The position numbers and the translations under genes are program-made. Source: Eledone cirrhosa (taxonomy: Eukaryota). From it: 64,000 nucleotides of DNA. Positions 690 through 62,139 of the stretch are shown piece by piece (the first letter of the stretch is position 1; every line of letters begins with the position of its first letter). The notes beneath the pieces are model-generated. The model did not search any database. It saw only the letters and a program-made list of their open reading frames with translations, and was not told the DNA's origin. The DNA lies in contig OZ024745.1 in the NCBI GenBank assembly GCA_964016885.1, positions 125,426,001 through 125,490,000 of the forward strand, written 5' to 3'.

Positions 690-930
690 ACTCATTTGCA
701 TACTAACTCATAACTTTTTATTACCCTCAATAAAGTATTATCTCCACTATCCAGGAAGCTCCAACCGTTAAAGTTGTCTTTTTTCCGGGTATGTCAATAT
801 TTATTTATAAAACAAATCTGTATTTTATCTGATGAAAGCGCACCCTAATTTTCCTTGGTTGCCCTTGAAATATGTATAATAAAATAAATATGGTTTTATA
901 AATATAGTTTCCATTTATTAATATATTGTA
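690..930 (+). mobile_element. Family A HHR-bearing pseudo-LTR fragment ending at (TA)n
   Basis: Shares 'ttataaaacaaa..tattttatctgatga..aaatatggttttataaatatagtttccatttattaatat' with copies near 36280, 37440, 55880, 61580; left boundary approximate. Confidence 0.6.
821..886 (+). ncRNA. Type I minimal hammerhead ribozyme, family A (PLE pseudo-LTR)
   Basis: tattttat-CTGATGA-aagcgcacc..ggttgccctt-GAAA-tatgta-TA-ataaaata: perfect 8-bp stem I, canonical core, imperfect stem II, short stem III, AUA site. Confidence 0.8.
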
Positions 931-2340: not shown

Positions 2341-2401
2341 CAGAAATTAAACAAAACTAGATTATATAAACCCCGGAGAATTCATATAATTGTTTCTATT
2401 T

Positions 2402-2570
2402 TGGGCACAAGGCCAGCAATTACCCAGTACATTACTGGTACTTTATTTTATCGACCCCGTAAGGATGAAAGGTAAAGTTAACCTCGGCTGGATTTGAACT
2501 CAGATCATAAAGGGACGTAACTCTATGCTTCAAAGCATGGTGTCCGACTCTCTACCGATACTGAAACCTA
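2402..2570 (-). mobile_element. Abundant tRNA-derived SINE (family S1; central domain gcctttcatccttacggggtcgataaaataaagtaccag, Meta-domain-like)
   Basis: On minus strand: B box gagttcaaatcc and conserved central domain; about 25 copies in window. Confidence 0.85.
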
Positions 2571-3959: not shown

Positions 3960-4408
3960 CTCGTCGCTGATAGCTTCGCCAAAATCTTAGACTCTGGGTA
4001 TAGCAGATTTATGGGTGTAAAATTATCAATATGGACCCCAATGTTTGGATACTTTCTCAGCAGCCCATCAGCTCACAGAACTTGGAAATCCCTCCTTCTG
4101 CTGTCATTTGGCGTTAACGTCCGTTAAGATTTCGCCTAACAAACCTGCCATGTGAGCGTTAAACTTGTAAAGCCGAAATTTTAACCCAGGTGATTTGCCT
4201 TTCGTACAACAAGTCATCACCCCCTGTACAACATCAGCCATTGTTATTGGTTTTTCGTAATACTCTTCCTCCATTGCGGTGAGCTGCGGCAGCCTTACGA
4301 GATAGGCACTAAAGTTGATCCCGTGATCCAGCCGTTACTTCTCTAGAGTATCCGAGGGAAGTATCGCTGAAAATCGAATAACATGCGTCCTTTGTGGTCG
4401 AATGTGGC
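3960..4408 (-). pseudogene. Tx1/L1-clade LINE ORF2 remnant (RT N-terminal part)
   Basis: Minus translation LPQLTAMEEEYYEKPITMADV..GKSPGL..IDNFTPINLLYPESKILAKL matches the L1/Tx1 RT motifs GKSPGxDG and NFRPIxLLNxDxKIxAK. Confidence 0.7.
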
Positions 4409-4416
4409 TTGAGAGT

Positions 4417-6179
4417 AAAGCAGAAAGGTAGAGGAGGCAGAATCAGCTGCTGCACGCAATGACATGCGTTCTGTGTACCAAATTGCCAAGAAAATCACCG
4501 GCAGCTCTAGAGCTAACTCAGGCCCGGTGAAAGCGAAAGATGGTACGCTGCTTTCCAAGGGTGAAGAAAAGTTAGTCAGATGGGCTGAACATTTCAAGGA
4601 AGTCCTCAACCGACCGGAGCCACGTATGCCAGCAGGCCCTAAGGAACCTATTAGTTTGTTACCTATCAATACTGATGACTTCACAAAGAAGGAAGTCCGC
4701 TTTGCCATCAAAACCCTTAAGAATAACAAGTCACCAGGTATGGATGGAATTTCTGCTGAAATGCTGAAGTCAGGAGGCGAAAGCATGGTCAAGTGGATGG
4801 GCCACTTATGTAATCTTGTGTGGAACACGGGTGAAGTCCCAGAAGACTGGAGAAACGGAGCGGTTGTCTGTATCCCCAAGAAGGGCAACCTTGCCGATTG
4901 TGACAACTGGAGGGGAGTGACACTTCTCTCCATACCAGGGAAGGTCTATTGTCTAGTGATCCTGAACCGCATGCGTGGCATGGTAGACCGGGAACTGCGA
5001 GAACAACAGACAGGGTTCCGACCAAAACGTTCCTGTACAGAGTAGATCTTTACGCTACGCCGCATCATTGAGAGGTACAACGAATTCCAGAGTCCCCTCG
5101 CTATCAGCTTCATTGATTTCACCAAAGCATTCAATAGCATTCATCGGCCGTCGCTCTCGAGCATCATACATGAGTATGGTCTGCCCCAGAAAGTCATTTC
5201 GGCAATCAAACAGATTTACGTGCTGCATACGGACAGGGGATGGTTACAGTGACTGGTTTCAGGTGGTTACTGGCGTGCGTCAAGGTTGCTCGCTCTCTCC
5301 AATTCTCTTTGCCATAGCCATTGACTGGCTACTAAGAAGAGCGCCTAAAGATCAGGGTATATCTTGGGTGGGAGAGCAAAAGTTGTCTTACCTGGACTTT
5401 GCGGACGATATTGCTGCACTTGCAGAGAGCACAGCTGACCTGCAAATCATTGTGAACAATATCAATGTCGAAGCAGGAAGCTTAGGTCTCAATATCAGTG
5501 CCAAGAAGACCAAAAGCATGTTATCTGGGACACACCCACCACTAACCAGTGTCTTCATTGAACAAGGGGAGGTGGAGATAGTAGACAACTTCACCTACCT
5601 ACGAAGCGCCATTAACAATGAGCGCACCATGGACAGTGAACTGCAATGTAGAATGGGAAAGGCTTCAGCAGCATTTAACCAGCTTGACAAGATCTGGAAG
5701 AGCAGGAAGTTCACCCTCAAAACAAAGATGAGATTCTAAAACAGCAACGTGCTGTCCACACTCTTGTATGGAAGTGAAACATGGCACCTTAAGACCAGCT
5801 AAGAGAAGAAGTTGGACGCATTCGATTACAGATGTCTGCGAAAGATCCTGGGGATTAAATGGAGTGACCATGTAACAAACCAGGAAGTCAGGAACCGCAC
5901 CAACCAGCAGCTAGTCTCTTCTACCATCTGCAAGCGACGTCTGGGCTGGTTTGGACACGCTTTGAGACTTCCCCCGGAGAGACTGGCGAACCAAGTACTT
6001 AAATGGAGCCCGCAGGGAAGCAGACGGAGAGGACGACCCAAAATGAACTGGCGCCAGACAGTTAAGAGGGACCTGCGAGCGACACAGACAATGGCGGGAC
6101 GCTGTGCAACTGGCTGCTGACCGAACGCGATGGAACACTATGATTGCCTCATGCGTCGCAAGACGCGGGAGCTTCTGAG
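4417..6179 (+). mobile_element. 5'-truncated RTE-clade LINE with disrupted reverse transcriptase
   Basis: KSPGMDGISAEMLK, NWRGVTLLSIPGKV, GVRQGCSLSPILF, LDFADDIA, LLYGSETW, RRGRPKMNW; stops at 5043, 5737, 5800 plus frameshift; flanked by ttgagagt duplication (4409-4416, 6180-6187). Confidence 0.92.
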
Positions 6180-9965: not shown

Positions 9966-10373
9966 TTGTATATATATATATATATATATTTAATATAGAT
10001 AATATATATGTACGTCAATACTCATCTTTTTCCATTTCTCCGAGGGTTCATAACCCCACTATCAGGCTACATAATTTCTTTAATTTCTTTAGTCAAAATA
10101 CGGCGATAGCTTACATTTCTAATAATTTCAAACCCACTCGCTGTTTCGAAAATATTCTTACATATATGCATATATATACATATATATATACACAGAGGTA
10201 TCTACAGTAAGTTGTGGGGTCTATTCTGCACGAAGAACTCGATGTAATCCATATGTTGAAAATGTTGAAGGTTAAGATAAATCTCAGAAAACAATAAAAC
10301 ATTAAAAGGAAAACAGAGTCATGATATAAGTTAAAACAGTGAAATAAAAAATCAAGTCATTAGAGATATACTT

Positions 10374-10515
10374 CACTGCTTTACGATCGTTTCTAGACGA
10401 TAATAATACATTATAGCTATACTCCGTTATTGATCTATGTAAGGTTAGTTACAAAATATCAGATAAAGAGAATATTTACTTACATGCATATCACCAGCTG
10501 TTTTCAAAAGCAATA
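10374..10515 (-). ncRNA. HHR family B, U3-A8 core, long stem II
   Basis: tattgctt-TTGAAAA-cagctggtgat..attatcgtcta-GAAA-cgatcg-TA-aagcagtg. Confidence 0.7.
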
Positions 10516-11950
10516 ATAATTCTATTCAGAATTAGTAGTATGTTAGTATCATGTCCTTATTTGGGGATAGTTGAAGAACTAACGAATCAAATTGTTTTTT
10601 TCATATGGTGTTAAGATGAAAAGTAATACACTTTAGTTGAGGTCATGACCCTTTGAAAGGAATGGTTGAATGGTTGAATTGATATGGATATCCATAAATA
10701 TAACAAAGTTCATATATAAAGAACTTAGAAAAACTATAAGAAAGCAAATACCACCGCACTAACATCCTTGAACAACATATGTGATATAGTAAAAATCTCC
10801 AGATTGAAGATAGGACTGAGCCTTTCACGCCTAAAACCCCGCACTTCAATCTGAAAGACCATTAATCTGACTTTAACTCGAATCCATCTAAATCTGATAT
10901 CGGTAATATCAGCAAAAAGATTATTGATCGTATCATTCAGCAAATTAGAAAATGTGTATCACTTCCACTATGGGATAACACTTCCCAAGTTATTGAATGG
11001 TTCACTAGCATTGGGAATAAAAACTCAGCTTCATTCATTCAATTCGACATCGATTCTTACTATTCTTCGATTTTCTTCAATTCTTTTAAACAAAACACTG
11101 ATCTTTGCCAGAAATAGATCGGATTTATCTACTGAGGAAATCAATATCATAACTCACGCTAGAAAAACCTTACTAAACTTCCAAGAAGAATACTGGACAA
11201 GAAACACATATAACAACTTATTCGATATTACGATGGGATCCATGGACTCTGCTCACGTTACAGACCTCGTTGGACTATTTCTCCTCTATAATATTCATGA
11301 CTCTTTTCCCCACCTCAAAGATGGTCTTTATCGGATCATTGTCTATTGTTATCTAACAATCTTAGCAATTCCAATATAGAAAAAAAAAACAAAAACAAAT
11401 TAGAAAATTCCACAAGGACTATTACAGCCTTAGCATCACTTTTGAAAACACTTCAAAAGTAGCTAATTTCCTTGATGTTACCTTAGACCTCTCTACGAAT
11501 ACTTATCAACCTTACCACAAACCTAACCAGAATCTACATCATGTACATTCACGCTCTATACTCAAGAACTTAGTTTATAACATATCTCTTAGACTTTCTA
11601 AATTATCTTCCAATTTATATTCACCTTATATTTATATTAACCTTAATTTATATTCACCTAAAAGCTCAATACAACACTAATCACCATTTATTTTGACATT
11701 CTTTTTAACTTCACTATACCAGAAACATTCAACTAGCAATTTGACAATCCCTTTCCTCCTAATAGATTGTTATGCCAATTCTACTATTAACACCATTCAA
11801 CCATTCCTTTCAAAGGGTCATGTCCTCCACTAAAGTGTATTACTTTTCATCTTAACACCATATGAAAAAAACAATTTGATTCGTTAGTTCTTCAAATACC
11901 TCCAAATAAGGACATGTTACTAACATACTACTAATTCTGAATAAAATTAT

Positions 11951-12092
11951 TATTGCTTTTGAAAACAGCTGGTGATATGCATGTAAGTAAATATTCTCTG
12001 TATCTGATATTTTGTAACTAACCTTACATAGATCAATAACGTAGTATAGCTACAATGTATTATCATCATCTAGAAACGATCGAAAAGCAGTG
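11951..12092 (+). ncRNA. HHR family B, U3-A8 core, cleavage triplet mutated (GAA), probably inactive
   Basis: tattgctt-TTGAAAA-cagctggtg..catcatcta-GAAA-cgatcg-AA-aagcagtg. Confidence 0.55.
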
Positions 12093-12362
12093 AAGTATAT
12101 CTCTAATGACTTGATTTTTTATTTCATTGTTTTAACTTATATATATATATATATATTTCGTTTCTGAATTTGTTTAGCAAGATTCTTTATCTGAAATCGT
12201 GTGTTGAAACCGATATTGTTATACTTTGGGAGGGTTATGTTGCCAATAAGAAACACACGCACCAGTTGCTTTCACTTCAATTTATTATATATTTATAAAT
12301 TTATAAATTTATACATTTCTGGTTGGTTGGTTGGTTCCACAACCAGATAGTTGTTTATATAT

Positions 12363-12938: not shown

Positions 12939-14473
12939 TTACAGTTTAATATGGGGGCTTATTTTACAGGTTATACATTTCTTATCTATACATGAGGGTC
13001 TTTGAAAAGGGTATGTCTTGCTAATAAGTGTTTTTACGGAGGTACCTGGTCTTTCTACTATCTTAATATTGAGTTTATGTTTATTTAGGGCCCTTCTAAA
13101 TTTGTAAGCTAATTCACCTCTAGGGGTTGTATCGATGAACATTACACTCTGGTATTTATTGCTATCATACCATGAGTTTATTCTATTAGCCTTGTTCCTA
13201 GTTCTTTCTATTCTATTCCAAAATTTGCTCCTATACAAGGGGCAGGTCCCATTTATGTCATTATTTACCATTTTTTCCCATTTGGTTCTGGCTCCTCTAT
13301 ACACTCTGATTTTATCTCTCTGATTGTAGCCAGAGAACTGCATACGGTGGATGAAGTGTTGTATGTGTCTCTCTAGTTCTTCGGGGTTGCACATGCGGGA
13401 CACATTTCTCATCACCCGTACCAAATCCGCAATCAGTATGTTGATTTTGGTATGGTCCGAAATGGCCGAGATTCGGTGGATCAGATGTTTGGAAGTCATG
13501 GGTTTGGCATAATGGGAATAGAGGATTTGTTTTTTGTTGTTAATGGTATCTAACCAGGGCTCTGTGTCTAGTACAGGTAATCGATGGTTGGGGTGTTTAC
13601 TTGGGTAGTCTATAGTAACTCTAATGCTCTGGTGAATGGAGTTTGCTATTTGCTGGATGCTTTCCATTGTGTTTTTCTCTAGTTCCTGACTGTTCTCTAG
13701 TGGGGGTGTCTTAACTACGATGTTTATATCATCTACGTAGCGGGAGTACATTATCAGGGTTAAGGGGTCTTCTAATTGTTCTTTAAGTTTAAGTTTAAGT
13801 CTACTGTCCCACCATACCATGAATAAGTTAGCTATGTCGCCTGCAATGCTAACACCAATGGCTGCTCCTTCCTCTTGGGCATATGTTTTTCCATTAAATT
13901 TGAACATATGTTCCTTAAGGGTTAGTTTTATGCTGGCCCCTACCGCATGTGCAATCATTTTCTTCAGTTCATCGTGGTTTTCGGGTGTCCGTATGGCTCT
14001 GGTCCACCCGTTCCATCTATCTGTGTGTGTTTTCTTGGCCATTGAGGTAATGGTAGGTGGTCTGCCTCTTGCTGGTCTTGTAGGGCACAGGTTGCTAAGG
14101 TCATATGTGTCTAGGTAATTATTACTATAGGTAAGCTTAAGTAGGAGTCCCAGCTCACTGGTATCAATCCCACGGAACTCAACCTTGCTCTCACTGATCA
14201 TTTCTACGCATTTTTCCACAGCAAAATCTACGTCAATAGATGGATACAGGGACACAACATCCATACTGCCTATTATGCAGTTTGTTAGGTCCCCAGATCG
14301 GTTACCCACGCCGATTCTGCTGAGGAGGTCCTCCGTGCTGTCACATACATCTGGGGACATTTCAATGATGGGGCGTATGATCAGGGAGAGGAAGTAGGAC
14401 AGTCTGTAGTTACTAGCAATGTTAGCTCCACAGACTGGCCGTGTTGGTGGTCCCGCGACAGGGTCACAGCCCG
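12939..14473 (-). pseudogene. PLE reverse transcriptase (open frame from the truncation point)
   Basis: TRPVCG, GSMDVVSLYPSI, QEEGAAIGVSIAGDIANLFM, YSRYVDDI, LPVLD, SGY thumb motif. Confidence 0.92.
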
Positions 14474-14697
14474 TATATATATATATATATATATATATGT
14501 AGATAAATCTACCAAGAGTTTACGGTAGTGTCCAATCCGTATGAAGAACTCAATGTAGTCCGGATATCATGGAAAGAAGAGATGCAATGAAAAATCACTT
14601 TCGGTGAAAGATAAACGGAATACAGAGTCAAGATAAAATATTAAAAAAATAATGAATAAAACAATGAAACAGTTCCTTATATTAAACAAAAAAAGTT

Positions 14698-14847
14698 CAT
14701 TATTTAACGATCGTTTCTAGGATATATATGTGTTAGAATTGGCATGCATATTCAACAGATCTATGTACAAAATTATATAAAATTATACAAACTATCAAGA
14801 TTAAATATACATACCAAACACACATATATGCCGTCTTCAGAAATAAT
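14698..14847 (-). ncRNA. HHR family B', canonical C3-G8 core, long stem II (left arm of palindrome)
   Basis: Reverse complement of 14856-15006. Confidence 0.75.
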
Positions 14848-14855
14848 CATTATTT

Positions 14856-15006
14856 CATTATTTCTGAAGACGGCATATATGTGTGTTTGGTATGTATATT
14901 TAATCTTGATAGTTTGTATAATTTTATATAATTTTGTACATAGATCTGTTGAATATGCATGCCAATTCTAACACATATATATCCTAGAAACGATCGTTAA
15001 ATAATG
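14856..15006 (+). ncRNA. HHR family B', canonical core, 116-nt stem II domain
   Basis: cattattt-CTGAAGA-cggcatatatgtgt..acacatatatatccta-GAAA-cgatcg-TT-aaataatg; inner helix ttggtatgtatattt/gaatatgcatgccaa. Confidence 0.78.
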
Positions 15007-15016
15007 AACTTTTTTT

Positions 15017-16412
15017 AAGAGGGTGTTAAAGTTTGCTTGAAGCATTGTGAAATGTGTAAAAATACGTATTTAAGAAAGCCACAACAATGCAAAGGGAAAT
15101 CTCGAGGTAGGAAGTGAAATATAGATAGGAAAAACAGGTGAAAGTGAAAGTTGAGAGAGACAAAGATGAAAACAAAACAAAGGTAGAAGGGTTACCGTAG
15201 TAGAGATTTTAATCCCAATATTTCGGGCTCACGCCCATCAACGGGGGAAAAGTTCCAAAAGGGGGGAAAACAGGCCAAGCGGAGAAAGTGTTGATGTCGT
15301 TAAGACAGGAATGCCGTTAAGGGGAGAAAAATATTTAAAATTTAAACGAGGGAGAGAATGCGCGTGCGCGTGATAAGCTGTGGCAAAAGCTACTGACCAA
15401 ATGGGTTAAATCAAGAGGGTGCGTTAGCGTGTGAAAGCCTTAAGATATGTGTATGTAAATATATATGTGTGTGTGACTGTGTGTGTATAGGTGTAAGTGT
15501 GTATATGTGTGAGTGTGTGTGTGTGTGAAAGATAGTGGGCTGTAGAAGTTGGAAATCAAAGGGTGTGAAAGGTGGTAGGTTGTAAAATATGTGTGCGTGT
15601 ATAAATATAGAAGTGTGTGTGTGTAAGCGTATGGGTATACATGTGTGTGTGTAACTGTGTATGTATATGTGTGAGTGCGTTTGTGTGTGAAAGATAGTGG
15701 GCTGTAGAAGCTGGAAATCAAAGGGTGTGAAAGGTGGTAGGTTGTAAAAACATGTGTGCGTGTAAAATATAGAAGTGTGTGTGCATGCGTATGGGTATGC
15801 ATATACGTGCGTGTGTGTGAATATAACAGGCCGTAGGCTGTGAATGGTCAATATGGTTAAATTAGCCATGTCAGCTCATTTCTCTCAGCCCGGTTGTTAA
15901 GTGGGGGTCTGAGGTTCTTAATAACAAGTGCTTCCTTTATCCTTAAGGATCCGATGCTGCGTTCAGTCGCTAGGACTGTGACCAAGGGTCTACCCTGTGG
16001 GTTTCCGCATTTGAGGATATGTTTACGGAAGGAAGATGCGTTGGTGTTGATATGTTCCTTGATACGAACATGTAGGGGTCGGATGGTGCTACCTATGTAA
16101 AACTTGTTACATTTATCGCATTGAATCTTATATACGACATAGGTGCGTAGGCAATCTGCCCCCCGTATCGGGCAGTTGCTGAGGGAACAAGTCCTATCTG
16201 CCTCGTAGGGTTTGTTGGAGAGGCATCTTCGCAGCGAAGGTCCTGTGTGGGCCAAATGTATGTCAAGTCCCTCCGTACGTATGGCCCTGCGGATGGCGTT
16301 CGTGGTACATTCACTCAGGTGGGGGATTTTAAAGAAGCACCTGCTAATATTAAGTTTTCTAGTGGGTGTCGGTCTACTGGGTCTGGGGTCTCTAATTCCG
16401 TTAATCAGTCGC
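15017..16412 (-). mobile_element. 5'-truncated PLE (GIY-YIG end plus 3' UTR/pseudo-LTR) nested in the family B' element
   Basis: T7 target duplication 15010-15016 and 16413-16419; host sequence resumes at 16420. Confidence 0.85.
15857..16255 (-). pseudogene. PLE GIY-YIG endonuclease domain
   Basis: VVYKIQCDKCNKFYIGSTIRPLHVRIKEH..LRIKEALVIKNLRPPLN. Confidence 0.9.
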
Positions 16413-16465
16413 TTTTTTTGTTTAATATAAGGAACTGTTTCATTGTTTTATTCATTATTTTTTTA

Positions 16466-16507
<42 letters not shown>

Positions 16508-16510
<3 letters not shown>

Positions 16511-16620
16511 GTACTCCTCGTTTAACAAACGGGTTACGTTCCAATGACCCGTTCGTTAAACGAAATGATCGTTAAACGAGTGACTTTCTTACGACATTGG
16601 GCATATAGGTCTGTACAGTA
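16508..16620 (+). mobile_element. Tigger/pogo-like DNA transposon left end
   Basis: ta-caggtactcctcgtttaac terminus with internal cgttaaacga repeats; no right end found. Confidence 0.5.
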
Positions 16621-16961
16621 CAGTATATATTCTTGATATTGTTTCTTTATTTCGATTATTAGTTTTTAACTTAAAATCATATACACAGAACTATAGCTTT
16701 TCTTTATAAAGTATATTACTGTACAGTAGTCTTATTTTTTGTTTTAGCTGTAGATTTCAAGGTTTTCAAACTTAAACTAGGCTACATTATGGGCACTGAA
16801 TAACCTTTCGCTCGGCCAACATTCGTCATATACGTTCAGAATAATTCTGGATATATTGTTTCTTTATTTTGACTAATACCTTTTAACTTTAAATCGTATG
16901 TTATACATAGCACTATACCTTTTCTTTATAGAGTATATTAAAGCCTTACTTTTTGTTTTAC

Positions 16962-17102
16962 CGGTACTTTATTTTATCGACCCCGTAAGGATGAAAGGCA
17001 AAGTTAACCTCGGCGGGATTTGAACTCAGATCATACAAGGAGGTAACTCTATGCTTCAAAGTATGGCGTCCGAACATCTACCGATACTGCCAATCCACCG
17101 CC
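16962..17102 (-). mobile_element. S1 SINE
   Basis: Consensus match ending ccaatccaccgcc. Confidence 0.85.
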
Positions 17103-17492
17103 TATATATATATATATATTAATAAAAGGAATTCCAACTTTGTCTGATTTACTCGTTTTATTTACAATCCTTTAAAATTTATAATGGTCATATTGTGTGG
17201 TGACAGTCAAGTTTGCAATTTTCAACTTGAAAATTGCAAACTTGACTGTCACCACACAATATAAACCTGAAGATTGCGAAAGCATGAAAGTACTTGTTCA
17301 ATTAACACTTAACATTTAATATTCTACCATACTATTATTACTAAATAAAATATGTTGTTTTAAAGATTTCCTAACCCAGAAAAAAATAGATAAATAAAAA
17401 GGAAGAAAATATATTTTTCTTCCTAATAATCGTTTTTTTCTCCATATTTTCATATATATATATCCCAACTCGTGTGCCTCTTTTCCACATTT

Positions 17493-17538
<46 letters not shown>

Positions 17539-17657
17539 AGATATATATATATATATAATATAAGTTAAAACAATGAAATAAAAAATCAAGTGATTAGAGA
17601 TATACTTCACTGCTTTACAATCGTTTCTAGCTGATGATAATACATTGTAGCTATACT

Positions 17658-17799
17658 CATTGCTTTTGAAAACAGCTGGTGATATGCATGTAAGTAAATA
17701 TTCTCTTTATCTGATATTTTGTAACTAACCTTACATAGATCAATAACAGAGTATAGCTACAATGTATTATCATCACCTAGAAACGATCGTAAAGCAGTG
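17658..17799 (+). ncRNA. HHR family B, U3-A8 core, 107-nt stem II domain, intact GUA site
   Basis: cattgctt-TTGAAAA-cagctggtgata..tatcatcaccta-GAAA-cgatcg-TA-aagcagtg; preceded by an inverted partial copy 17560-17657. Confidence 0.78.
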
Positions 17800-17975
17800 A
17801 AGTATATCTCGAATGACTTGATTTTTTATTTCATTGTTTTAACTTATATCATGACTCTGTTTTCCTTTTAATGTTTTATTGTTTTCCGGGATTTATCTTA
17901 ACCTACAACATATGGATTACATCGAGTTCTTCATGCAGAATAGACCCCTCAATTTACTGTGTATATATATATATA

Positions 17976-18477: not shown

Positions 18478-18532
18478 ACTGCTATATATATTTCGGTGAC
18501 AGCCATCTTTGGCTGTGACCTCTTCAGGCAGT
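18478..18532 (-). ncRNA. HHR family F
   Basis: actgc-CTGAAGA-ggtcacagcca-aaga-tggctgtcacc-GAAA-tatata-TA-gcagt: perfect stem I, 11-position stem II with one C-C mismatch. Confidence 0.88.
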
Positions 18533-26948: not shown

Positions 26949-27320
26949 AGATCAAAAGATGGTTAAAAGAGTTCCATGTATTTTATTATGCGCATTTCAA
27001 AAACAAATATCATCATGAGATGACATTTGCGTTTTTGTCAGATAAAATAGGGATACATGATATGAAGGTTAAAAAACACTTGTGAATAGTGAAGTTTTAA
27101 ATCAACATATGAAAAGTAATTTAAGATTGATGTGTGATATTGGGAAAAAGTGAGGGGGCTGGGGTTGGAAAGGGTGAAAAAGAGGAGGAGATGAGAGTAA
27201 AGAATGATGGAGGAGGAGTATAATAATGAAGGATGAGATAGGGGGAGAGATGGGTGATAGAGAGAGAGAGATATTTGCATTGCTTTATTGTACTACAATA
27301 AAACTCACCTCCTACGTTTA

Positions 27321-36318: not shown

Positions 36319-36379
36319 TATTTTATTATACGTATTTCAAGGGTACTAATATTTTACTATGCTTTCATCAGATAAAATA
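36319..36379 (-). ncRNA. HHR family A, degenerate stem II
   Basis: tattttat-CTGATGA-aagcatagta..tagtaccctt-GAAA-tacgta-TA-ataaaata. Confidence 0.7.
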
Positions 36380-37465: not shown

Positions 37466-37530
37466 TATTTTGTCTGATGAAGGCATACCATAATTTAACT
37501 TGGTATCCTTGAAATATGTATAATGAAATA
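37466..37530 (+). ncRNA. HHR family A, best-paired copy
   Basis: tattttgt-CTGATGA-aggcatacca-taatttaact-tggtatcctt-GAAA-tatgta-TA-atgaaata. Confidence 0.82.
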
Positions 37531-61621: not shown

Positions 61622-61682
61622 TACTCTATTATATATATTTCAAGGGTACCAAAACTTTGGTACGCACTCATCAGATAAAATA
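61622..61682 (-). ncRNA. HHR family A
   Basis: tattttat-CTGATGA-gtgcgtacca-aagttt-tggtaccctt-GAAA-tatata-TA-atagagta. Confidence 0.75.
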
Positions 61683-61811: not shown

Positions 61812-62095
61812 GAGATATCCATGGTAAGTTGTGGGGTCGTCTAGTCTGCATGAAGAACTCAATGTAATCTATATGTTGAAAATGTTATAGGTTCAAATAA
61901 ATCCCAGAAAACAATAAAACAGCTGGTGATATACAGGTAAGTAAATATTTTCCTTATCTGATATTTTGTAACAAACCTTACATAGATCGATAACGAAGTA
62001 TTGTTACGATATATTATCATCACCTAGAAACGATCGTAAACCAGTGAAATATATTTCTAATGACTTGAATTTTTATTTCATTGTTTTAACTTATA
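61808..62095. mobile_element. Family B element with inversion; HHR (61916-62046) lacks its 5' core
   Basis: 61808-61921 matches 10195-10301; 61916-62095 matches 17669-17848. Confidence 0.75.
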
Positions 62096-62139
62096 TATAT
62101 ATATCGCTTTTAGCTTTTCCGATTATGTATTTATATATT

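What the first reader, a model, noticed from the sequence alone, without database searches (positions are those of the whole stretch)
14856..17799. HHR family with a >100-nt stem II domain that switches between C3-G8 and U3-A8 cores
Seen: B' (14856-15006) and B (17658-17799, 10374-10515) share GAAA-CGATCG-UH, a C-A juxtaposition at the base of stem II and a 107-116-nt structured insert. Stem I differs with pairing kept (cattattt/aaataatg versus cattgctt/aagcagtg), outer stem II differs with pairing kept (cggcatatat/atatatccta versus cagctggtgat/atcatcaccta), and the core changes doubly, CUGAAGA to UUGAAAA. Known: positions 3 and 8 form a tertiary Watson-Crick pair in the active hammerhead. Inference: natural covariation of a tertiary pair within one lineage, plus an extra domain that length-limited searches would miss and that could stabilise the fold or bind protein.
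Basis: partly seen in the sequence, partly recalled or inferred. Interest (0 to 1): 0.85.

Follow-up and report, generated by a model that had tools for sequence, protein, structure and literature searches.

The report
Long-stemmed hammerhead of Hydra retrotransposons
Thousands of copies of an animal jumping gene carry a hammerhead self-cutting RNA motif with an unusually long side stem; many short copies stop exactly at its first letter while the gene-bearing copies checked read through it, which suggests the motif likely cuts and closes the RNA into a circle that would serve as the copying template.

Summary
Observation confirmed. These are type I hammerheads in the end repeats of Hydra-clade Penelope-like retroelements, about 11,000 copies genome-wide. 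The core does not switch back and forth. One lineage is fixed at U3-A8 and the others at C3-G8, and this covariation is already published for Penelope-like elements. Stem II is one unbranched 97-126-nt rod, against loops of 3-10 nt in published Hydra hammerheads. Its invariant part reads as either an internal loop or the splice signals of a retained 42-54-nt intron; no spliced copy was found.

More interesting is where copies end. About a third of B' copies stop at the first base of stem I, often after an extra G, likely the RNA cap. None of 56 ORF-bearing copies that reach that point stop there, and the cleavage site shows no excess of ends. Best reading: capped single-hammerhead RNAs stay uncut and give stubs, while two-hammerhead RNAs are likely cut as dimers and circularised. 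Read-through of tandem arrays is the main rival. Cleavage is untested.

The scan noted this family, the intron idea and cap-ended stubs before on other DNA; my look-ups showed no note of the stub/full-length contrast.

The parts
14498..14847 (-). B' long arm: pLTR copy from the inferred transcription start (A at 14847, extra G at 14848 on this strand) through the hammerhead to the distal end (about +350), followed by (TA)n
14699..14847 (-).
14857..15016 (+). B' short arm with hammerhead: stem I 14857-14863 / 14999-15005, C3-G8 core 14864-14870, stem II rod 14871-14986, palindromic stem III ACGAUCGU 14990-14997, predicted cut after 14998; arm ends early at 15016
14890..14943 (+). Intron-like segment inside B' stem II (GUAUGU ... 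UUGAU ... UACAUAG), 54 nt; splicing not shown
   Evidence: no spliced copy
17659..17800 (+). B hammerhead, U3-A8 core 17666-17672, stem II rod 17673-17779, predicted cut after 17791; this copy begins at stem I
17690..17738 (+). Intron-like segment inside B stem II (GUAAGU ... CUGAU/CUAAC ... UACAUAG), 49 nt; splicing not shown
   Evidence: no joint
17549..17657 (-). Inverted, 5'-truncated B short arm (begins inside stem II) joined head-to-head to the 17659 copy
10192..10516 (-). B long arm with intact U3-A8 hammerhead (core 10507-10501, cut after 10382); left end of an inverted-ended B insertion
10684..11578 (+). Broken fragment of the Hydra-type RT of the B insertion
   Evidence: tblastn 45-71% to the B' protein
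11952..12142 (+). B short arm; hammerhead with U16.1 changed to A (predicted inactive)
61916..62104 (+). 5'-truncated B copy lacking the CUGA-type core

Best explanation
This is a type I hammerhead motif with a 100-nt rod-like stem II in the end repeat of Hydra-clade Penelope-like retroelements; it likely forms the first 150 letters of the capped RNA and is predicted to cut only as a dimer, so that RNAs with two copies would be cut and closed into a cap-less unit circle that templates the long insertions, while one-copy RNAs stay uncut and are copied into short stubs ending at the cap. Shown: the motif, its host element, the fixed C3-G8 versus U3-A8 lineages, the rod, the pile of short-copy ends at the first base of stem I with an extra G, and ORF-bearing copies reading through that point. 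Inferred: that the G is the cap, dimer cleavage through the ACGAUCGU palindrome, ligation, and the circular template. The rod probably tolerates or sequesters a short retained intron; that part is weakest. Identity as a Hydra pLTR hammerhead is about 0.95; the confidence given is for the mechanism.
For: HOST: B' lies 3.73 kb behind an 813-814-aa RT plus C-terminal GIY-YIG ORF with Hydra motifs, in 6.67-kb units. 98 of 99 scored ORF matches have no stop in the 421 aa searched. SELECTION: lineage-fixed 3-8 double change with no amplified mismatch subfamily. Double and wobble-preserving changes in stems I and II. The 8-nt stem III is a perfect palindrome, self-duplex -10 kcal/mol, as in dimer-acting PLE hammerheads (PMC4209133, PMC6765202). 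RNA START: B' copies with a non-reference base just before stem I number about 1,620 (56 of 100 listed among 2,896), plus 120 and 317 at the neighbouring positions, against 3,829 with the reference bases, about 35%. G at that position: 402 copies, 15 of 56 listed, against 6 of 100 and 5 of 100 listed at the neighbours. In B it is 47 G to 34 A, with unrelated flanks. An untemplated 5' G is read as cap copying for L1 (PMC9341517). CONTRAST: of 79 ORF-bearing B' copies 0 end at that point, 48 read past it and 31 end before reaching it. In B, 8 of 12 pass and 0 stop. 34 followed further end at scattered points from -414 to -5763 with no pile; 11 reach the upstream ORF and 2 pass a second hammerhead. 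Repeated ends within one insertion differ by <=1 base in 20 of 32 pairs, against 2.1% of 2,743 between-locus pairs.
Against: No cleavage, ligation or circle was observed. Position 10.1-11.1 is a C.A mismatch where G-C is the norm (PMC4209133; PMC3088659 rejected such hits). Stem I from the inferred start is 7 bp and all A-U in B', and it did not form in the constrained monomer fold. No excess of 5' ends at the cleavage site: 54 copies genome-wide (15 of 30 inspected are truncations) against 68 at a control site, and 4 of 79 ORF copies where about 1.6 are expected. In vitro, an Anolis PLE used uncut RNA and hammerhead mutants inserted normally (PMC11167929). Arrays of four units exist, so read-through RNA could give the same contrast; matching ends do not separate a circle from a young homogeneous array. 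The 79 copies come from the 99 best-scoring of 40,808 candidates and are not all independent. Some end points may be alignment breaks at microsatellites.
Confidence: 0.45

Rival explanations
1. Long copies are made from uncut linear read-through RNA of multi-unit arrays, with copying started at the most 3' repeat. Stubs come from separate short capped RNAs of solo repeats. The hammerhead then only limits the RNA or is a protein-assisted scaffold.
For: Four-unit arrays with intact ORFs exist. Uncut RNA was the dominant substrate for an Anolis PLE in vitro (PMC11167929). No excess of ends at the cut site.
Against: Each repeat appears to carry its own start, and 48 of 79 ORF copies have an intact start just upstream of the ORF, so some cap-ended full-length copies are expected; 0 of 56 were seen. 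No upstream pile of ends marks another promoter within one unit.
Confidence: 0.35
2. The long stem II exists because a short spliceosomal intron (42-54 nt) sits in it and the rod hides its donor, branch point and pyrimidine tract, so the template keeps the intron. This is compatible with either template model.
For: A GUA(A/U/G)GU donor sits 17-19 nt after the core in B, B' and C, with only the +4 base varying. YUGAU lies 23-34 nt before an invariant UAG. The first nine bases of the donor strand are invariant in 11 of 11 B'/C representatives while the partner strand shifts among wobble pairs. All three signals are predicted paired except the UAG. The same arrangement arises in 0.15-0.35% of composition-matched random sequences, by criteria chosen after the fact. 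Penelope has a 75-nt intron 46 nt after its start (PMC2377424).
Against: 0 precise intron-less copies among 18 matches of spliced size, out of about 11,000 copies including about 2,000 cap-ended ones. 0 matches for splicing to an acceptor near the ATG. 42 nt is very short and the host's minimum intron size is unknown. A 10-base invariant block is not rare at 73% background identity.
Confidence: 0.35
3. One reading: the insert is an RNA domain (conserved 4x3 internal loop AKUU/UAG between GAU-AUC and UGUA-UACA) that stabilises the active fold or binds the element's protein, making up for the C.A mismatch and weak stems.
For: The module keeps its predicted shape in all subfamilies while the apical loop changes by 10-nt duplications. 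The sense strand folds better than the antisense (-43.9 vs -25.2). The Anolis PLE hammerhead is protein-assisted (PMC11167929).
Against: The module is invariant, so it shows no covariation. One multi-copy B subfamily breaks its G-C pair (L194). It lies 35-45 bp from the core. A short-stem family in this genome has the same C.A base with a 14-nt stem II region, so C.A does not require the insert.
Confidence: 0.3
4. Cutting at +141 removes the cap and switches the RNA to cap-independent translation of the ORF.
For: The 5' UTR holds 10 upstream ATGs. Hammerheads in viral 5' UTRs support cap-independent translation (PMC13725137, abstract only).
Against: No translation data. It does not by itself explain why ORF-bearing copies pass the start site.
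Confidence: 0.15

Closest known systems
Hammerheads of Hydra-clade Penelope-like elements (Craig et al. 2021, PMC8557442; passages, section 11 and supplement parts 1-2 read)
   Same: Type I motif in the pLTR of a C-terminal GIY-YIG element with DKT and CxCX5C motifs that inserts in (TA)n.
   Different: All 26 Hydra rows of File S2 have C3-G8 cores and 3-10-nt loop 2. Here stem II spans 97-126 nt, one lineage is U3-A8, and the unit is 6.67 kb rather than under 3 kb.
U3-A8 minimal hammerheads of Schistosoma Cercyon PLEs (Cervera and De la Pena 2014, PMC4209133; parts 1-2 of 4 read)
   Same: The same core covariation in pLTR hammerheads, palindromic helix III, dimer model, and the proposal of a circular template.
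   Different: Helix II of 7-8 bp with conserved G10.1-C11.1; no genomic test of the circle in the parts read.
Penelope of Drosophila virilis (Schostak et al. 2008, PMC2377424, passages; hammerhead in PMC4209133)
   Same: Internal promoter in the pLTR and a short retained intron just after the start, next to the hammerhead.
   Different: There the intron ends at the 5' end of helix I. Here the RNA appears to start at helix I and the intron-like segment lies inside helix II.
Poseidon PAc of Anolis (PMC11167929; passages and second part of the main text read)
   Same: Two internal start sites for reverse transcription that explain long and short arms; hammerhead in the pLTR.
   Different: Small stem II; arms here differ by about 135 nt rather than 30-40; uncut RNA was the substrate in vitro.
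Discontinuous Clec2 hammerheads (via review PMC2950038, passages)
   Same: Large insertion in a hammerhead loop that defeats standard searches.
   Different: Insertions are in loops 1 or 3 of a mammalian 3' UTR, not in stem II of a retroelement.

Membership tests
Type I hammerhead ribozyme | Core YUGANRA ... GAAA ... UH with a Watson-Crick 3-8 pair | tested here: met
Type I hammerhead ribozyme | Three helices, stem I open, with pairing kept across variants | tested here: met
   stem III is 2 bp plus a palindromic loop
Type I hammerhead ribozyme | Base pair at 10.1-11.1 (usually G-C) | tested here: not met
   C.A in all long-stem copies matched (the search patterns required it); also seen in a short-stem family
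Type I hammerhead ribozyme | Match to an Rfam hammerhead model | tested here: not met
   no hammerhead family among 140 matches; the short hammerheads of the window were missed too
Type I hammerhead ribozyme | Self-cleavage after UH | not testable with these tools
   indirect only; no excess of ends at the site
PLE pLTR hammerheads (Cervera 2014) | Located in the pLTR of a Penelope-like element | tested here: met
PLE pLTR hammerheads (Cervera 2014) | Short palindromic helix III | tested here: met
   ACGAUCGU
PLE pLTR hammerheads (Cervera 2014) | Helix II of about 6-8 bp with a small loop | tested here: not met
   97-126-nt rod
Hydra clade of PLEs | Single ORF, RT with C-terminal GIY-YIG, CCHH absent, CxxC and CxH near the end | tested here: met
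   read from the translation; Pfam gave no hit at its cut-off
Hydra clade of PLEs | DKT motif and CxCX5C linker | tested here: met
   against PMC8557442 section 11 and aligned rows, compared by eye
Hydra clade of PLEs | RWK motif | tested here: inconclusive
   RWR at that place
Hydra clade of PLEs | Insertion into (TA)n | tested here: met
Hydra clade of PLEs | Placement in an RT phylogeny | not tested
   no reference Hydra proteins were available as tool sequences
Naiad clade of PLEs | N-terminal GIY-YIG endonuclease | tested here: not met
   endonuclease is C-terminal
Spliceosomal (GT-AG) intron | Donor, branch point and acceptor in order | tested here: met
   donor-like motif found in 177 of 190 distinct copies; spacing is short
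Spliceosomal (GT-AG) intron | Spliced product exists | tested here: inconclusive
   0 of 18 spliced-size genomic matches are precise; no RNA run on record

The most novel reading that the evidence does not exclude
A protein-coding animal retrotransposon replicates through a 6.7-kb circular RNA made by its own dimeric hammerhead, and that hammerhead's stem II is a folded-back intron whose splice signals are hidden by the rod. One RNA element would then set the transcription start, keep the intron and switch the RNA from capped mRNA to circular template.
Probability: 0.2. Interest if true: 0.85.

Novelty: new variant of a known kind. Interest (0 to 1): 0.5.

Why it matters
What hammerheads do in Penelope-like elements is stated as unclear (PMC8557442). 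A circular template was proposed (PMC4209133), an antisense template was argued to explain intron retention (PMC3846280), and an in vitro system used uncut RNA (PMC11167929). Here a young, abundant family leaves a genomic record that bears on these models. Stubs appear to be copied from capped sense RNA, and ORF-bearing copies come from RNA without an end at that start. This makes the circle-versus-read-through question testable with one RT-PCR and one mutant. The long stem II and the U3-A8 core alone are modest: the core variant is published, and other families in the same genome have stem II regions of 13-68 nt.

Tried and rejected
Naiad assignment: rejected, the endonuclease is C-terminal.

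The RT ORF at 12939-14519 as the host of B': rejected. It has no significant similarity to the family's protein; the B' arm simply inserted beside it.

Repeated core switching: rejected. The two U3-A8-like hits among B'/C patterns were unrelated sequence.

Pile of 5' ends at the cleavage site: not found. An upstream promoter within one unit: no pile.

Intron-less genomic copies: none.

Expression: no RNA holder listed. Contigs of four coded runs of unrecorded kind showed no GT-AG joint for B' or B; a blank that shows nothing either way.

A downstream promoter element at +28 to +33: no match to the recalled consensus, and spacing from the start varies by 1 nt.

The repeat finder on the whole window was swamped by microsatellites. 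MAFFT misaligned B with B' in the insert, so the lineages were folded separately. No covariance model, tree or protein homolog search was run.

Lunse et al. 2017 is not held, and the supplementary figures of PMC4209133 were not read; either could show long-helix-II variants. Ten paper searches listed no paper whose title, abstract start or passages read describe a >100-nt stem II, an intron inside stem II, or the stub/full-length contrast in PLEs.

Full report
OBSERVATION. The three copies are present as described. The window also holds an inverted B' copy at 14847-14699, a B copy at 11952 with a damaged U16.1, and partial B arms. Both forms fold far better than shuffles (z -6.2 and -4.1). Rfam finds no hammerhead among 140 weak matches. 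In the 3.0-Gb genome G000 the family pattern matches 2,620 and 8,649 times in two length classes, against 4 and 7 for controls; a few of these are short or chance hits.

HOST ELEMENT. Many copies come as outward-facing pairs, one arm about 352-374 nt and the other 215 nt, ending in (TA)n. That is the inverted pLTR with one-sided tail of Penelope-like elements (PMC8557442). Longer insertions carry an 813-814-aa ORF with RT and C-terminal GIY-YIG, DKT, CxCX5C, CxxC and CxH motifs, the marks of the Hydra clade (compared by eye; RWK reads RWR; Pfam gave no hit). Units repeat every 6,673 nt with a 3.73-kb 3' UTR. 98 of the 99 best of 40,808 candidates have no stop in the 421 aa searched, so B' is young. 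B belongs to a sister lineage, 69-79% identical in protein; none of its 12 ORF-start copies reads more than 466 codons without a stop. A third lineage, C, has stems of about 97-108 nt. The RT at 12939-14519 is a different, unrelated element.

CORE. B is fixed at U3-A8: 1,105 U3 copies, 99 of 100 listed with A8, and 8 C3 copies, all C3.A8. B' and C are fixed at C3-G8, with 44 U3.G8 and 64 C3.A8 single mutants and no true U3-A8. All 26 Hydra rows in File S2 of PMC8557442 are C3-G8, so by parsimony one double change occurred at the base of B. It is good evidence of selection on the core but not new: PMC4209133 reports about 1,300 U3-A8 PLE hammerheads in Schistosoma and PMC3088659 reports the natural covariation.

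STEM II. It is one unbranched rod in all subfamilies. Among 11 B'/C representatives, 3 of 46 predicted pairs show double changes and many show wobble-preserving ones. Among 8 B representatives, 1 of 50 does. The distal module GAU-AKUU-UGUA / UACA-UAG-AUC is nearly invariant, so it gives no covariation. Overall B versus B' identity there is 76%, against 73% in the rest of the 5' UTR and in the ORF. Other hammerhead families in the fetched loci have stem II regions of 13-68 nt, one with the same C.A base, so the rod is the end of a range. The rod contains GUA(A/U/G)GU 17-19 nt after the core, YUGAU, and UACAUAG, which would define introns of 42 (C), 49 (B) and 54 nt (B'). The donor, branch A and pyrimidine tract are predicted paired. 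Penelope has a short intron at a similar distance from its start (PMC2377424). Against this, none of 18 spliced-size matches is a precise excision and none joins to an acceptor near the ATG. I put the intron at about 0.35.

WHERE COPIES BEGIN. In a non-random sample, 11 of 66 B', 14 of 38 C and 16 of 53 B copies begin within 16 nt of the core, most at -7 or -8. Genome-wide about 2,060 of 5,890 B' copies have a non-reference base at -9 to -7 (the -8 figure is scaled from 56 of 100 listed). The base before A(-7) is G in 402 copies, 27% of listed non-reference cases against 6% and 5% at the neighbours. In B it is G in 47 and A in 34, and 18 of 26 truncated junctions inspected have G after unrelated flanks (one ambiguous). 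The window's own inverted copy has it. For L1 such a G is read as copying of the cap (PMC9341517). So the RNA likely starts at the first base of stem I, and these stubs were copied from sense RNA that was not cut. This speaks against the antisense-template idea in PMC3846280 for these copies. Ends at the cleavage site are not enriched: 54 copies, 15 of 30 inspected being truncations, against 68 at a control site.

THE CONTRAST. Of 79 ORF-bearing B' copies, none ends at that start; 48 read past it and 31 end earlier, 4 of them near the cut site. With a 35% stop rate, 0 of 48 has a chance near 1e-9 if independent, which they are not fully. In B, 8 of 12 pass and none stops. The 34 followed further end at scattered points, 11 inside the upstream ORF, and 2 pass a second hammerhead (some ends may be alignment breaks). 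Repeated ends within one insertion are nearly identical, 20 of 32 pairs with at most one difference against 2.1% between loci. A capped linear monomer is therefore not the template of the long copies.

MECHANISM. Most likely the two hammerheads of a pLTR-ORF-pLTR transcript pair through the ACGAUCGU palindrome, cut at both ends and are ligated to a cap-less circle. Reverse transcription from the internal sites near +215 and +352 would then run round it, giving more-than-unit copies, the model proposed in PMC4209133. RNAs with one hammerhead would stay uncut and give stubs. Cleavage, ligation and the circle are inferred, not shown. The main rival is uncut read-through RNA from multi-unit arrays, which exist and fit the in vitro result for PAc (PMC11167929). 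The C.A mismatch and weak stem I argue for low intrinsic activity.

PRIOR WORK. Papers seen: PMC4209133 (parts 1-2 of 4); PMC8557442 (passages, section 11, supplement parts 1-2 and a search in it); PMC11167929 (passages, main text part 2); PMC3846280 (passages, discussion); PMC3088659, PMC2377424, PMC6765202, PMC9341517, PMC2950038 (passages); PMC13725137 (abstract); bioRxiv 10.64898/2026.07.22.740005 (part 1 of 5). Lunse et al. 2017 was not held. Splice-site, initiator and DPE consensus motifs are recalled. Scan notes describe the same family, a possible intron in a long stem, and cap-ended stubs in other genomes; my notebook entries on the pile of ends at stem I and on the cap G and intron precede the last two look-ups. 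They are unchecked notes and I count only my own tests. The look-up returned one note, on a different PLE class.

VERDICT. Real, a new variant of a known kind. The end-mapping contrast, which makes the function of PLE hammerheads directly testable, lifts it to 0.5.

Noticed in passing
window 821-886, 18478-18532, 26979-27049, 36319-36379, 37466-37530, 61622-61682: Six short type I hammerheads of other families (stem II region 26-36 nt, stem III palindromic or nearly so); several share the R-U, G-C, C.C stem II base of the long family.
   Followed up: partly
window 12939-14519 (-) and 15857-16447 (-): A Penelope-type RT fragment unrelated to the Hydra protein, and a GIY-YIG fragment (Pfam PF01541); the B' pair sits between them.
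   Followed up: partly
L201 and L214, head-to-head junctions; window 14848-14856: Short tandem repeats of the first 8-13 bases of the RNA at the junction, in L214 each starting with the extra G, as if the enzyme re-copied the capped end several times.
   Followed up: partly
L073:7947 and 7972: A-to-G differences common in coded run X4 but nearly absent in X1, like RNA editing; run kind and individual are not on record, so only a hint.
   Followed up: no
L073, 38-40 nt before the ATG; L068 likewise: A 17-nt block ATTTAG|TTGAGCTCTTT conserved between B and B' just upstream of the start codon; possible second splice acceptor or translation signal. No spliced genomic copy.
   Followed up: partly
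L073 5' UTR about +285 to +300 and B equivalent: A block conserved between B and B' between the two arm ends, possibly part of the signals where reverse transcription starts.
   Followed up: no
window 4343-5739: Frameshifted non-LTR (LINE-type) RT, Pfam RVT_1.
   Followed up: no
window 2384-2563 and about 20 other places: A dispersed repeat of about 180 nt, SINE-like, in both orientations.
   Followed up: no
L252, L070, L014: Other hammerhead families with stem II regions of 68, 52 and 49 nt and no obvious GT-AG segment.
   Followed up: no
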